From NCBI GenBank assembly GCA_951406725.2, contig OX597817.1, positions 125,178,001 to 125,242,000 on the forward strand: a stretch of 64,000 nt of DNA, read 5' to 3'. Made by a program: the position numbers and the translations under genes. Positions 17,732-44,967 of the stretch are shown piece by piece; position 1 is the stretch's first letter; every line of letters begins with the position of its first letter. This DNA is from Octopus vulgaris (Eukaryota). The notes below the pieces were generated by a model. The model had not been told where the DNA came from and searched no databases. It was given only the letters and a program-made list of their open reading frames with translations.

Positions 17732-18385
17732 AGAAAAATGATATCATCAATTTCATTAGGTTTCACCTGCTTCTGCTATAAGAGGCAAAATGCACTCATA
17801 GTTGCATGCTTGTGAATCACCCTTTAGCTACATTGGAACTTCAAACATGAAGCACAATTCTTTTCAATTAAGGATAGTGCCTCTTACAGTACCTACCCCC
17901 ATCTTCTTTTAAAGATCTACCAAAAGGAAAGCTGCCTTTCTTCAGACCTTTCAATTCCATTTGCCAAGCAACGTCTTTTGCTATAGTTGCTAGGCAGAGG
18001 AAACTTGATACCTCTGCCCATTAAAAGAGCATGTTGGAGCAATTTACGCTTTAGATGGGGCTGATAACTAAGTCAATTCCATATGCAAGGCAGTTGTTTG
18101 ATATTACATTACACATCAGTATTGCCTGGGCCCCAAAAGACTGTGTATGCACTTCGTATTTGGAGCTCTGATGAAGCTATACAGTGATGCACAAGCATGC
18201 AGATATGAGTGTTTGCCTCTTATAGCAGAAACGGCTGTAAGGCTAATGAAGGTCATCATATAATTTTCTTTTCACATCTTAGTTTCTAATTACTGTTCTG
18301 AACTCAACTGACACTTTGTTCTAAAGTACACATGTACTGAGTTCTAATATTAGATTGTTAGTATTTCTAAGTCAAAGTGAAATAC
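17732..18385 (+). mobile_element. Fold-back Penelope-like relic P1 (inverted arms ~17732-17864 and ~18135-18269, 3' extension to (TA)n)
   Basis: Left ttctgctataagaggcaaa..gcatgcttgtg is the reverse complement of right cacaagcatgc..tttgcctcttatagcagaa; hammerhead core in the right arm. Confidence 0.7.
18163..18245 (+). ncRNA. Type I hammerhead ribozyme motif
   Basis: gagct CTGATGA a gctata..(long loop)..tatagc a GAAAC ggct GTA aggct; canonical CUGAUGA/GAAA core with a GUA cleavage triplet; stem I imperfect. Confidence 0.7.
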
Positions 18386-18874
18386 TATATATATATATAT
18401 ACACACACATATACATATATATACACATACATATACATATATATTTGTGTATATATATATATATATATATATATTCGTGTATATATTCATATACACACAC
18501 ACACATATATATGCATACATACATATATATGTGTATATATATGTATATATATATTTATATATATACACACACATATTTGAGTGGCAACAATCTGCCAATA
18601 AAAACACATCCAATGATTATATTCCTCTGTTTTTATAGTATTATTAGTTGATTAGCCAAACAAATGCCTCGTTAGCTAATTAACCAGTTAACTAATAGAT
18701 TGCTTGACTGATCATTTGATCCATTAATCAGTCAAATTTGTGGCTGTGACAAACTGCATACAAGCATCATTGATGAAGTAACAAATGGGCAATGAAAGTA
18801 CAATGATGAATTAACTGATCAAAAGTTTCATCAAACAGTTTATTAGCTTAGTGGTTAGTTAGTTAAGTTGTGGA

Positions 18875-19020
18875 ATAATAATAATAAGAAGAAGAATAAG
18901 AAGAAGAAGGATGAGGAGGAGAAGGAGGATAACAACAACAACAACAACAATAATAATAATAATAATAATAATAATGATAATAATAATAATAATAATAATA
19001 ATAATGATGATGATGATGAT
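18875..19020. repeat. Compound trinucleotide repeat (AAT/AAG/GAG/AAC/AAT/GAT)
   Basis: Direct reading. Confidence 0.95.
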
Positions 19021-19773
19021 GCAGAGAAATGAAACAATCAATGCATATCTTTTTATTGGTTAAATGATCCTTCAATGATACAAAAATATCAGTTTCAACA
19101 AGTTTTCTCATATCAAATATTTTGCAAAACAAATGAAGAACACAAATACATACATGCATGCATATATGTATACATACATATATAAATGTATATATATGTG
19201 TGTGTGTGTGCGTCTGTGTGTGAGTGTGTGTAAATTAAATACAGAGATATTCCATTGACAATCCAATAGTTTATTTATATTACAATATTACATTAAATTG
19301 TTGTTGGCATCCTTTTGTCTCGGGAGACATTGGAGTTGTGCATAAACTAATCCAGTCTGGTTTTTACATTTCATGTCCTTTCCAGTTTTGCACAAGCCTG
19401 GGCTAAATGTAAGAAAACCCTGGATAGTCCAATCGTCAGGATTCCTCTCTCGACCTTGCTGATGTTGTCCAAAGGAATGCAGAGCTTTACATATGGCACC
19501 AGCTAGGTTGGAGGAGCTGTCGGAAGAGTGTTGAGTGGAACACTAAACCGCCTTCGGGGCTCCACTCTGGATTTCTTTGAAGGTTGTCTCCTTTCTGTAA
19601 CCCTGGAGAAGAGCCCATACCGGGTACAGTCAGCTGGAGCCAGCTGAACCTGGGACTCGTGTCAGGCAGGGTTGTCACTCCCTGAAGTAGTGAAGAAAAT
19701 CGCTACCCACTACCTAAATTATGTTAAATACTATGAATATAATATGTAGCATAACAATATTATATAAATAATT

Positions 19774-41091: not shown

Positions 41092-41413
41092 ATAGAGGGA
41101 ATAAAAGGCAAAGAAAAAGAAAAAGAAAATGAAAACTATTCGTTAAAGTCTGTAGGCTTACATTTTAGTGACTTGTAAATTTCCATGTGTTAGTAGATTC
41201 CTTCATTAGATGCATATGTCAGTAAGTGGGGACGGTGACTATTTTTTGACTGGTGGTGTTGGCCGAAGGAGTTATATGTAATTACAAGGGAAGCCCTTGT
41301 TTAAACTAAGGATGCTATTACAATTTGTATGATATATTACAATTTGTGTGATATAGTATGTACAAATTTAATATAGGATTAATACGGTATTGTACTATAT
41401 AGATTATAATATA

Positions 41414-43595
41414 CTAGCAGTATCGCCCGGCATTGCTCAGGTTTGTAAGGGAAATAACTATATAAGCATTTTTAGAGATGTAAAGTATAATAGCCATCTC
41501 AATATGGCTAACCACAAATGGGGGGTATTACTGTAGCTTTTTACGTTCTGAGATTTAATAAATTTTTAGAGAGTTACTTCCCTTATATAATAGCAAAAAA
41601 TGCATTAAAAATGGGAAAAATGATGGTAAATTTTTTTTTAAATCGTAGACTCATCGTAGACGCGCGCTAATACCCAGAAGGGCTCGATATGAATCACAAC
41701 TATAAGATACTCGGTTTTGGTTAAACTGCACTGCAAAATGTGGGAGTAGTTAGGAATCTAAATCGTAGGAGACAGACAGAACACAACCTCACTTTTATAT
41801 ATAACTAGCAGTATCACCCGGCGTTGCTCGGGTTTGTAAGGGAAATAACTATATAAGCATTTTTAGAGATGTAAAGTATAATAGCCATCTCAATATCGCT
41901 AACCACAAAGGGAGGGGTGTTACTGTAGCTTTTTACGTTCTGAGATTTAAAAATAAATTTTTAGAGAGTTACTTCCCTTATATATGCAAAAAATGCATTA
42001 AAAGTGGGAAACATTGATAGTAAATATTTTTTTAAATCGTAGACTCATCATAGACGCACGCTAATACCCAGAAGGGCTCGATATGAATCACGACTATAAG
42101 ATACCCGGTTTTGGTTAAACTGCACCGCAAAATGTGGGAGTAGTTAGGAATCTAATTTGTAGGAGACAGACAGCACACAACCTCCCTTTTATATCTATAC
42201 TAGCAGTATCGCCCGGCGTTGCTCGGGTTTGTAAGGGAAATAACTATATAAGCATTTTTAGAGAGTTACTTCCCTTATAGATGCCAATTCGGGCTTTCTT
42301 AGCCATTTCTGTTTTGGTGTCTTCAGGCCATGAAATCGTCGTTCTGAAAGAACCCTGGTCTCCTTGACAACGCTTTATGACGTTGATTTCCTTACACTCC
42401 CTTCCCCACAGCTTCACGAGGGAGGGAAGAAGGGGGAGAAGCAAACACAGGTGTAGGTGTTTGAGCGTGGATGCCAACTCGGCCGCCATCGACACACGAA
42501 AAATTATGCATTAAAATGGAATAAAAAATGATGTTAAATTATTTTTTAAATCGTAGACTCATCGTAGACGCGCGCTAATAGCTAGACGGGCTCGATATGA
42601 ATCACGACTATAAGATACCCGAATTTGGTTAAACTGCACTGCAAAATGTGGGAGTAGTTAGGAATCTAAATCGAAGGGGATAGACACTCACACAACTACA
42701 GTTTTATATATCTATATATATAAAACTGTAGTTGTGTGAGTCTACGATTTTAAAAATAATTTAACATCATTTTTTATTCCATTTTAATGCATATTTTTTC
42801 GTGTGTCGATGGCGGCGGAGTTGGCGTCCATGCTCACACCTGCACCTGTGTTGCTTCTCCCCCTTCTTCCCTCCCTCGTGAAGCTGTGGGGAAGGGAGTG
42901 TAAGGAAATCAACGTCGTAATGCGTTGTCAAGGAGACCAGCGTTCTTTTAGAACAACGACTTCATGGATTGAAGTCGCCAAAACAGAAATCGCTAAAAAA
43001 GCTGAAACAGATCCACAAAAACGGCAAAAACCGCCACACAGGGCAGGTTTCCTGTGCAAACAATTTGCACAACCGAATGTTTTAGTTGTTGCACAAATCT
43101 TTATATATAAAAGTAAGGTTGTGTGTCTGTCTCCTACGATTTAGATTCCTAACCACTCCCACATTTTGCGGTGCAGTGTAACCAAAACCGGGTATCTTAT
43201 AGTCGTGATTCATATCGAGCCCTTTTGGGTATAGCACGCGTCTACGATGAGTCTACGATTTAAAAAAAAATTACCATCATTTTTTTATTCCATTTTAATG
43301 CATTTTTCGCTATTATATAAGGGAAGTAACTCTCTAAAAATGTCTACGATGAGTCAACGATTAAAAAAAAATTACCATCATTTTTTATTCCATTTTAATG
43401 CATTTTTCGCTATTATATAAGGGAAGTAACTCTCTAAAAATGTCTACGATGAGTCAACGATTTAAAAAAAAAATTACCATCATTTTTTATTCCATTTTTA
43501 ATTCATTTTTTGCTATTTTTTTGCTATAACTCACTAAAAATGCTTATATAGTTATTTCCCTTACAAACCCGAGCAACGCCGGGCGATACTGCTAG
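41414..43595. mobile_element. Array of five non-autonomous Helitron units: three minus (41414-41804, 41805-42199, 42200-42710), two plus (42711-43097, 43098-43595)
   Basis: Unit 5 is canonical: A|TC start and cccgagcaacgccggg hairpin + CTAG|T end; units 1-3 each show the reverse complement ctagcagtatc(g/a)cccggc; units are highly similar and retain CpGs, so they look young. Confidence 0.85.
43241..43560 (+). repeat. ~100-bp tandem repeat (about 3 copies) inside Helitron unit 5
   Basis: tctacgatgagtc(t/a)acgatt..attaccatcattttttattccattt recurs at ~43241, 43343, 43443. Confidence 0.85.
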
Positions 43596-44967
43596 TATAA
43601 AGATATAAAGATATTTCAGGAAACAGAATATTTGGTTTAAAATGTGAAGTTATGTTATGTGGTAGGTGGGATAGTAAGGGGAGGTAATCAGATGTTAAGG
43701 AGGTCTGTTAATAACCAGTAATGCAGGGATTAGCAATATTTAAAGAATAAGTAGAGTTTAATGATATTTCAAGAATAAGAATTTATCTTTATGCAAACAA
43801 ATTGTATTTTTCTCACCTCATTTATTAAGTAATTATAAATTAGACAAGCAAAATACAATTTGCATAAAGATAAATTCTTATTCTCAAAATATCATTAAAC
43901 TCTACTTATTCTTTATATATCACTAATCCCTGCATTACTGGTTATTAACGGACCCCCTTAACATCTTATTACCCCCTCCCCCTTATTATCCCACTAACCA
44001 CATAACATAACTTCACATTTTAAACCAAACACCCCAATTACCGTACTATATATTATAATCTACATAGTACAATACAGCATTAATCCTATCTTAAATTTCA
44101 TTTGATAGCTAGACTACCAACTCACACAACACGTAATAATTTTCTATTGAGTTTAATGATTGTTATGTACTCTTTAACTCTTTTTACTATTCCTTTACAT
44201 AGCCCATATGTACACACTATATCATACAAATTGTAATAGCATCCTTAGTTTAAACAACGACTTTCCTTGTAATTACAGGAACTAAATTAGAAGCCACAAA
44301 TTACCATACTTATTTCTAATTACAACACCAGATATCCCCACCATGTATAAGTCCTTCGGCCAACACCACCAGTCAACTAGTCACTGTCCCCACTTATTGT
44401 CATACACATCTAATGAAGGAATCTACTAATATGTGGAAATTTACAAGTCACTAATATGTAAGCTTACAGACTTCAATCAACATTTTTCCTTTTTTTCCTT
44501 TTCTTTTTCTTTCCCTTTTAAACACTAATGATCCACTTTTCATTGTTAATTATTGCTCCATTATCTTCACTATATATATTAAATTACCTACTATTGTATA
44601 CCTTATAACGAGGACAATACATAGTGAGGTAATACATCAGGAGTGCCTACGGATACATCTATTCCTTAGATGGTTGCATAACTTCTAACATATCTTGCTA
44701 TATATATATATACATATATACATACTTGTGTGCATTTGTGTCCTTGCCTTTATATTGTGTGGTCGTAATATAAATGTCAGTCATACAAGTAGTGTCCTTT
44801 CGTTTCAGTCATCCATGATTACATGTCCAATCATTGGGAAATATCAGCTTGTTTGGAAACTTTTGAGGATTTTTTATATACATACATACATACATATATA
44901 CACATACATATACATGCTTATATATATGTATAAACATACATAAATATATATTTACATATATATTTAT

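What the first reader, a model, noticed from the sequence alone, without database searches (positions are those of the whole stretch)
17732..44698. Five different fold-back elements, each carrying a hammerhead ribozyme core, next to (TA)n tracts
Seen: five inverted-repeat structures (P1 17732-18385, P2 19774-20400, P3 20596-21094, P4 25434-25960, P5 40912-44698) whose arms do not resemble each other. All share one architecture: inverted arm, spacer, arm, ~120-150-nt unpaired extension, (TA)n. Each has a CUGANGA-like box, a pairing stem II, GAAA(C), a tiny stem III (loop AGCT or GATC, palindromic, in three) and a GUH triplet. Established: Penelope-like retroelements carry minimal type I hammerheads in their pseudo-LTRs, thought to cleave as dimers, and truncated copies often have an inverted 5' pLTR. 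Inference: this is a dense, diverse population of essentially non-coding, ribozyme-bearing, microsatellite-targeted retro-palindromes. They could be truncation products or independently amplifying retrozyme-like elements.
Basis: partly seen in the sequence, partly recalled or inferred. Interest (0 to 1): 0.72.

Follow-up and report, generated by a model that had tools for sequence, protein, structure and literature searches.

The report
Hydra-type Penelope retroelement fold-back stubs
These five hairpin-shaped inserts are old, broken-off ribozyme-bearing ends of five Penelope-type jumping-gene families lodged back to back in TA repeats, a known kind of debris, and their matched short and long ends likely record the element's enzyme copying its RNA once from each side of the cut chromosome.

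Summary
The five fold-backs are real, but several boundaries were wrong and most ribozyme copies here are damaged. Each arm belongs to a dispersed family. P2, P3 and P5 run upstream into ORFs with the signature of Hydra-clade Penelope-like elements (CxCX5C linker, GIY-YIG), published as hammerhead-bearing and (TA)n-targeted, with an octopus member. No ORF was reached for P1 or P4. Family cores are minimal type I hammerheads (P2: variant CUGAAGU). One exact core 12-mer occurs 28,767 times against 422 for its control; 18 of 72 sampled insertions are fold-backs. Junctions differ between copies and no tandem arrays were seen, so these are not amplifying palindromes or retrozymes. Each family has two preferred 3' ends; 37 of 39 classifiable fold-backs pair one short with one long end, and in 15 of 37 neither arm can be a copy of the other, which points to two priming events. 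P4 arms start at a double initiator-like motif (23 of 30), likely the transcript start. Cleavage was not tested. This scan reported the same pattern before, in this and other genomes. Verdict: new members of a known kind.

The parts
17712..17859 (-). P1 left arm: 5'-truncated element end stopping at the proximal 3' end; ribozyme decayed; flank (CA)n
   Evidence: maps to family reference 373-518, 82%
17860..18147 (.). P1 spacer, DNA unrelated to the family
   Evidence: matched only itself in G000
18148..18382 (+). P1 right arm with 98-nt tail to the distal end; hammerhead 18168-18239 (box intact, loop III and stem I damaged); then (TA)n from 18386
   Evidence: reference 376-615, 79%
19231..20099 (-). 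P2 left arm (19718-20099 plus 19231-19298), ending at the proximal end; split by an unrelated insert 19299-19717
   Evidence: reference 374-762 and 751-818; insert ends
20102..20399 (+). P2 right arm with tail and an internal deletion of ~95 nt; variant hammerhead 20185-20260 (CUGAAGU box, GUU site)
   Evidence: reference 520-712 and 808-928; variant is family-wide
20400..20600 (.). (TA)n tract shared by P2 and P3
   Evidence: 102 copies
20595..20832 (-). P3 left arm, proximal end; hammerhead 20748-20708 with A9G, 8-bp stem II, 5-bp stem I, GATC loop
   Evidence: reference 500-736, 92%; descriptor hit
20829..21094 (+). P3 right arm, begins inside stem II (no CUGAAGA box), carries the 143-nt tail; 4-nt overlap at the junction
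   Evidence: reference 608-873, 92%
25434..25566 (-). P4 left arm, proximal end; holds only the 3' half of the ribozyme; 14-nt duplicated filler at 25558-25588
25582..25960 (+). P4 right arm from the double initiator-like motif to the distal end; hammerhead 25658-25736 with G12C
   Evidence: reference 213-584, 87%; 5' end at -149
40912..41413 (-). P5 left arm, outer part, proximal end; consensus-intact minimal hammerhead at 41086-41016
41404..43603 (.). Nest of a different non-autonomous repeat (394-nt and 100-nt units, one inverted pair) inserted into P5's left arm; Helentron/HINE-like by recalled end motifs
43604..43834 (-). P5 left arm, inner part, reaching the fold-back centre
   Evidence: reference 33-245, 84%
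43835..44698 (+). P5 right arm: last codons of the Hydra-type ORF (43839-43898), 3' UTR, ribozyme deleted near 44515, 149-nt tail, then (TA)n
   Evidence: reference 42-737 and 855-1065; translation

Best explanation
Each fold-back is a pair of 5'-truncated copies of the ribozyme-bearing 3' end of a Penelope-like retroelement (shown to be Hydra-clade for P2, P3 and P5, likely also for P1 and P4), joined head to head and likely made in one insertion event. Inferred steps: the element's RT-GIY-YIG protein, probably as a dimer, nicks both strands of a (TA)n tract; each free 3' end primes reverse transcription inside the element's RNA downstream of the hammerhead, one at a proximal site (49-142 nt after the cleavage site) and the other at a distal site 98-149 nt further on, just behind one or two small hairpins; both cDNAs stop early, or run off the transcript's 5' end as in P4; their ends are joined through microhomology, filler or captured DNA. 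The result is inverted arms with a one-sided tail. The hammerheads are passengers from the parent RNA, predicted to cleave only as dimers through the self-complementary stem III. In a fold-back the two copies lie on opposite strands, so a read-through RNA has one sense ribozyme that would pair with its own antisense arm. The inserts are dead and decaying.
For: Shown: arms are members of dispersed families (446-1,280 first-look candidates each, 40 scored). P5 and P3 loci continue upstream into GIY-YIG ORF remnants, with RT motifs in P5-type loci; L428 joins an inverted P2 tail, an ORF fragment and the P2 3' UTR in one insertion. A sister family has an 843-codon open frame (L187) with DKT, CxCX5C, GIY-YIG, CxxC and CxH motifs and an RWR motif ahead of a frameshift, the published Hydra diagnostics (PMC8557442 section 11); 70, 62 and 54 of 86 database homologues carry DKT, CxCX5C and RW[KR]. 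Two preferred 3' ends in all five families. Of 56 distinct head-to-head pairs, 37 are distal+proximal, 2 proximal+proximal, 0 distal+distal, 17 have an end elsewhere; all five window elements are distal+proximal. In 15 of the 37 each arm holds sequence the other lacks (my count). In L187 the distal end sequence recurs as the start of the 5' UTR, so that end is internal to the tandem RNA, as in the two internal RT starts measured for the anole element (PMC11167929). Stem I pairs exceed permuted partners (140 of 232 against mean 112, maximum 131 in 5,000; 30 of 48 against 22.7, p=0.003, for distinct stems). Predicted dimer of P5-left pairs through stem III.
Against: No ORF was reached for P1 or P4 in 5 and 5 extended loci. 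No cleavage, priming or dimer was tested. Loci are top-scoring hits, not random copies, and end classes depend on my tolerances (15-35 nt); 17 of 56 pairs do not fit both classes. Most arm pairs overlap by 45-276 nt, which simple one-RNA twin priming does not explain, and shared variants between arms are only modestly above background, so one versus two RNAs is open. Core columns are not better conserved than neighbours in P3 (0.931 against 0.959). P2 departs from the core in all 8 commonest box variants listed for 40 arms (none has A9), so it may not cleave. L187 has the tail on both arms, inside a larger inverted duplication.
Confidence: 0.75

Rival explanations
1. Snap-back (self-priming): one cDNA or an antisense template folds back and the second arm is copied from the first, as proposed for rotifer Penelope inverted repeats.
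For: Proposed in PMC3846280 (passage). Many junctions have little or no spacer and some carry short templated fold-back filler (L131, window P4). In 22 of 37 pairs the short arm lies within the long arm.
Against: In 15 of 37 distal+proximal pairs, and in window P2 and P3, the tail-less arm reaches further 5' than the tailed arm, and three pairs have no overlap at all, so neither arm can template the other. It does not explain why the short arm stops at the same site where single copies stop.
Confidence: 0.1
2. Some families (P4, P1) are non-autonomous, SINE-like short elements with their own promoter, mobilised in trans by Hydra proteins, rather than stubs of coding elements.
For: 23 of 30 scored P4 arms start within -152..-139 of the cleavage site, with peaks on the two A's of a double initiator-like motif (6 at -145, 4 at -141). 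No ORF was reached for P1 or P4.
Against: Both families have longer copies: shared sequence extends at least 0.6 kb (P1) and 1.3 kb (P4) upstream, and P4 is a distant homologue of ORF-linked P5. A fixed start is also expected from the 5' pLTR of a coding transcript.
Confidence: 0.2
3. The palindromes themselves amplify, as retrozyme-like circles or as a unit.
For: Minimal hammerheads with palindromic stem III; retrozymes are reported as PLE derivatives (bioRxiv 10.64898/2026.07.22.740005, part 1 of 5).
Against: Junction coordinates differ among the 56 pairs; about three quarters of sampled insertions are single arms; no tandem monomer arrays among 77 motif hits or the family loci; the two ribozymes are on opposite strands; P1's spacer is unique.
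Confidence: 0.03
4. MITE or foldback DNA transposons with terminal inverted repeats.
For: Inverted arms in TA-rich targets.
Against: Arms are asymmetric, 5'-truncated at variable points, usually single, and continuous with RT/GIY-YIG ORFs; no discrete target duplication is visible.
Confidence: 0.01

Closest known systems
Hydra clade of Penelope-like elements, including Hydra-1_Obim (Craig et al. 2021, PMC8557442; sections 11-12, passages, File S1 Hydra sheet and File S2 read)
   Same: C-terminal GIY-YIG, DKT, CxCX5C linker, CxxC and CxH motifs, RW[KR], 3' type I hammerhead, (TA)n insertion, inverted 5'-truncated copy (noted for Penelope-13_HM).
   Different: Many more families and copies here; 3' UTRs of 0.7-2.3 kb; stems and loops II often far longer than the 3-7-bp stems in File S2; even palindrome AC-AGCU-GU or AC-GAUC-GU; tail 98-149 nt rather than 30-40; Hydra-1_Obim's listed hammerhead is a different sequence from all five.
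Inverted-pLTR insertions with a one-sided tail (PMC3846280 passages; PMC8557442 Fig. 2 legend)
   Same: Head-to-head arrangement, optional tail on one arm, captured spacer DNA, initiator-like motif in the pLTR.
   Different: Here both arms are usually short and non-coding, and the short/long pairing is counted (37 of 39).
Poseidon element of the green anole, PAc (Frangieh et al. 2024, PMC11167929; parts 1-2 of 4 read)
   Same: Both strands cleaved and extended; two internal RT starts downstream of the hammerhead define the tail; predicted dimer.
   Different: Different clade; starts 30-40 nt apart and within the ORF; target ATT rather than (TA)n; four of five proximal ends here sit at an internal TATA that could pair with the target.
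Minimal PLE hammerheads (Cervera and de la Pena 2014, PMC4209133; parts 1-2 of 4 read)
   Same: Short stem I, long stem II, palindromic stem III, mostly solo motifs, opposite-strand pairs 100-700 bp apart.
   Different: The G10.1-C11.1 pair is not kept in P1, P4 or P5; P2 has U at position 9.
Metazoan non-LTR retrozymes (PMC7229834, passages)
   Same: Type I hammerhead, low GC, non-coding short copies.
   Different: Defined by tandem 150-450-bp monomers; none seen here.

Membership tests
Hydra-clade PLE | Single ORF, RT followed by C-terminal GIY-YIG endonuclease | tested here: met
   P5, P3, P2 loci; whole frame only in sister family L187; not reached for P1, P4
Hydra-clade PLE | CxCX5C linker in place of CX2-5CxxC | tested here: met
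   L187, L013 and L108, L428
Hydra-clade PLE | DKT in place of DKG; RWK motif | tested here: met
   DKT and RWR in L187; this region was not recovered for P1-P5 themselves
Hydra-clade PLE | CxxC and CxH around the conserved E and N; no CCHH | tested here: met
   CxxC and CxH in L187, L013, L190; absence of CCHH read by eye only
Hydra-clade PLE | Insertion into (TA)n | tested here: met
   microsatellite at 197 of 267 3' ends against 92 at the 5' ends of the same arms (sum of five families)
Hydra-clade PLE | Placement in the Hydra clade of an RT tree | not tested
   no tree with reference PLEs was built
Neptune/Nematis PLE | CX2-5CxxC linker | tested here: not met
   absent from L187; 3 of 86 homologues
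Minimal type I hammerhead | CUGANGA, GAAA, NUH core | tested here: met
   family level for P1, P3, P4, P5; only P5-left intact in the window
Minimal type I hammerhead | A9 of the core in family P2 | tested here: not met
   CUGAAGU consensus; no A9 among the 8 commonest variants of 40 arms; no such variant in the passages seen of PMC3088659
Minimal type I hammerhead | Stem I and II pairing with covariation across families | tested here: met
   permutation test on stem I; stems II
Minimal type I hammerhead | Self-complementary stem III allowing dimers | tested here: met
   8-bp duplexes predicted at -10 to -11 kcal/mol; P2 -4
Minimal type I hammerhead | Match to an Rfam hammerhead model | tested here: not met
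Minimal type I hammerhead | Self-cleavage | not testable with these tools
   needs in vitro transcription
Non-LTR retrozyme | Tandem monomers each with a hammerhead | tested here: not met
Non-LTR retrozyme | Circular RNA | not testable with these tools
   only contigs were offered
MITE / foldback DNA transposon | Fixed symmetric TIRs and discrete TSD | tested here: not met

The most novel reading that the evidence does not exclude
These stubs are a fossil record of how Hydra-clade retroelements insert: a dimeric enzyme obligately primes both strands of a (TA)n cut at two different internal RNA sites about 100-150 nt apart, the distal one marked by hairpins, and copies back to a transcript start at a double initiator, so tens of thousands of genomic palindromes map promoter and both RT start sites at base resolution; one family spread with a non-canonical CUGAAGU core, implying that canonical cleavage is dispensable or differently achieved.
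Probability: 0.5. Interest if true: 0.5.

Novelty: new member of a known kind. Interest (0 to 1): 0.3.

Why it matters
The structure class is published, so the finding itself is ordinary. Its use is mechanistic: how Penelope-like elements form inverted copies and one-sided tails is stated as unresolved (PMC8557442, PMC11167929), and the strict short/long pairing, the non-nested arms and the P4 start site give exact predictions for an in vitro assay. It also shows that this genome holds at least tens of thousands of hammerhead motifs that Rfam models miss.

Tried and rejected
Rfam: no hammerhead match. Pfam: no family for three PLE frames at E<=0.1; PDB sequence search gave nothing relevant; the ESM Atlas pointed to HTH_animal/GIY-YIG/RVT_1 clusters at 0.95-0.98. 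My working label 'Neptune' (notes) was dropped after reading the Hydra diagnostics. Walking upstream for P1 and P4 found no linked ORF; the GIY-YIG pieces in L208 (downstream of P4) and L261 (opposite strand to P1) look like separate insertions. One versus two RNA templates: shared non-consensus bases within fold-backs were 0.010-0.028 per site against 0.005-0.017 for any two arms, inconclusive; one P4 fold-back (L143) seems to join two subfamily variants, seen by eye. Fixed 5' ends in P1, P2, P3 and P5 could not be judged, because those loci were ranked partly on 5' length. Expression: no RNA holder listed for sister element L187; contigs of three guessed-RNA runs cover parts of it at mostly 90-99% identity, without strand or ends, so not used as evidence. 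Tail on the right in all five window elements: 7 of 8 with the neighbouring cluster, not significant. bioRxiv supplements were not visible; only part 2 of 59 of the Craig supplement was read, plus term searches.
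Full report
Observation. Self-alignment confirms five inverted repeats at about the stated places. Mapping the window onto family references built from genomic copies gives the real anatomy. P1: left arm 17712-17859, a spacer that matched only itself in the genome, right arm 18148-18382. 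P2: left arm 19231-20099, split by an insert at 19299-19717, right arm 20102-20399. P3: 20595-20832 and 20829-21094. P4: 25434-25566 and 25582-25960. P5: left arm 40912-43834, interrupted by a 2.2-kb nest of another repeat, right arm 43835-44698. In all five the arms face 5' to 5', the left arm stops at a proximal 3' end and the right arm continues 98-149 nt to a distal end before (TA)n. P3 and P5 are homologous downstream of the ribozyme and P4 more distantly so; the other 8 of 10 family pairs score at shuffle level.

Ribozyme. A descriptor scan found two strong full motifs with a palindromic loop III, P5-left (41086-41016) and P3-left (20748-20708), among 7 hits, the other 5 being weak. Family consensus lines have complete minimal type I cores for P1, P3, P4 and P5, with stems I of 4-5 bp in different sequences, long stems II and a self-complementary stem III. 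P2 has CUGAAGU and a GUU site family-wide; none of the 8 commonest variants among 40 arms has A9. In the 2.8-Gb genome the exact 12-mer GAAACAGCTGTH occurs 28,767 times against 422 for the reversed control. I fetched 77 of the first 100 listed hits (nearly all up to 6.0 Mb of contig C1, plus one later pair): 58 have a box within one mismatch upstream, and 25 of the chosen boxes are exact; stem I pairs number 140 of 232 against a permuted mean of 112, and 30 of 48 against 22.7 when only distinct stems are kept. Rfam models do not detect these motifs. Most window copies are damaged, and cleavage was not tested.

What the arms belong to. Each arm is a dispersed repeat with hundreds to more than a thousand first-look candidates and 71-94% identity among the 40 scored. 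P5 and P3 copies run upstream into degraded ORFs with a CxCX5C linker and GIY-YIG domain, and P5-type loci carry RT motifs; the window itself holds the last codons at 43839-43898. For P2, locus L428 has an inverted P2 tail joined to an ORF fragment followed by the P2 3' UTR. A sister family gives an 843-codon open frame (L187) with DKT, CxCX5C, GIY-YIG, CxxC and CxH, and RWR before a frameshift. These are the features by which Craig et al. 2021 define the Hydra clade, described with canonical hammerheads and (TA)n insertion (PMC8557442 section 11); their File S1 lists Hydra-1_Obim from an octopus. The closest named homologues are from Argonauta hians, so the host is likely an octopod (inference). 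P1 and P4 extend at least 0.6 and 1.3 kb upstream but no ORF was reached; their assignment rests on shared architecture and, for P4, homology to P5.

Amplifying unit or truncation product. Most copies are single arms: 18 of 72 insertions in the motif sample are fold-backs (my count, five two-arm pairs merged, one hit flagged only by a neighbour's repeat not counted). No tail-to-tail pair was flagged in the family loci. The 56 distinct head-to-head pairs have different junction coordinates, and no tandem arrays were seen, which fails the definition of non-LTR retrozymes (PMC7229834 passages). One detector found 4 fold-backs with an outward ribozyme half in the 64-kb window, 0 in 100 kb to the left, 3 in 100 kb to the right (all within 2.3 kb) and 2 in 200 kb spread over the genome: common genome-wide and locally clustered, probably because each insertion leaves new (TA)n targets (inference).

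How they are made. All five families show two preferred 3' ends; four of five proximal ends lie at an internal TATA after a pyrimidine run, and the distal ends follow predicted hairpins, a pair in P3, P4 and P5. Of the 56 pairs, 37 combine a distal with a proximal end, 2 are proximal twice, none distal twice and 17 have an end elsewhere. In 15 of the 37, and in window P2 and P3, the tail-less arm reaches further 5' than the tailed arm, so neither arm can be a snap-back copy of the other, against the self-priming model for those cases (PMC3846280 passage). In L187 the distal end sequence recurs at the start of the 5' UTR, so that end is internal to the element's tandem RNA. This fits the in vitro result for the anole element, which cuts and extends both strands and starts at two internal sites that define the tail (PMC11167929). 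I therefore infer two priming events per insertion, one from each strand of the cut (TA)n. Five pairs overlap by 12 nt or less, as expected for twin priming on one RNA; the rest overlap by 45-276 nt and need two RNAs or a re-used template; this is unresolved. In P4 loci chosen mostly on their 3' part, 23 of 30 scored arms begin at -152..-139 and one beyond -160; two more long copies (L141, L150) were split or dropped by that filter. The peaks fall on the two A's of overlapping TCATTC and TCAGTC, which match the insect initiator consensus TCAKTY (recalled, not from a call), so this is likely the transcript start.

Comparison and novelty. Inverted truncated copies with a one-sided 30-40-bp tail, minimal dimer-type hammerheads and opposite-strand pairs 100-700 bp apart are published. 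Differences here are the longer tail, long stems II, the family count and the P2 core variant. Searches listed no paper that counts the short/long pairing or describes these octopod families; most subscription papers are not covered. Earlier notes of this scan reached the same reading in this and other genomes; they are unchecked and not independent support. Verdict: real, a new set of members of a known kind, with modest mechanistic value.

Noticed in passing
window 41404-43603: Nest of a non-autonomous repeat (394-nt unit x2.2, 100-nt unit x2.7, inverted pair 41957-42561/42737-43341) inserted into P5's left arm; ends resemble Helentron/HINE elements (recalled).
   Followed up: partly
window 19299-19717: Unidentified ~420-nt GC-richer insert splitting P2's left arm, with a possible 6-nt target duplication.
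   Followed up: partly
window 40717-40817 (-): Decayed U6 snRNA copy (Rfam 73.7 bits) about 95 nt from P5's left end.
   Followed up: no
window 60364-60310 (-): Solo 3' half of a hammerhead followed by a pyrimidine run and (CA)n: a sixth, very short stub of another family.
   Followed up: partly
window 49554-50750 (-), 35068-35739, 52739-53176: Fragments of non-LTR retrotransposon ORFs; the piece at 49557-49940 hits RVT_1.
   Followed up: no
window 1854-2195, 26026-26415, 40528-40711, 44968-45361 and 11243-11503, 30279-30981, 35920-36112, 52617-52863, 60433-60722: Two abundant dispersed SINE-like families, several copies each.
   Followed up: no
G000:C4:125,300,150-125,302,400 (L367/L368): Cluster of three more hammerhead fold-backs from three other families within 2.3 kb, 58 kb right of the window.
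   Followed up: partly
L187 (G000:C31:2192500-2201500): Near full-length Hydra-type element with an 843-codon open frame, a 2.3-kb 3' UTR and a 2.1-kb inverted copy at 96%; the inversion extends at least 700 nt into the flanks, suggesting a larger inverted duplication or an assembly effect.
   Followed up: partly
L188 (G000:C28): A 679-codon open frame fusing a non-LTR RT in frame to the linker and GIY-YIG of the L187 family.
   Followed up: no
L290, L293, L297, L322, L324, L347: One abundant family often has CCGAUGA instead of CUGAUGA in the core box.
   Followed up: no
L340, L342, L348: Three motif hits on C1 with identical ribozyme surroundings: a young family or a segmental duplication.
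   Followed up: no
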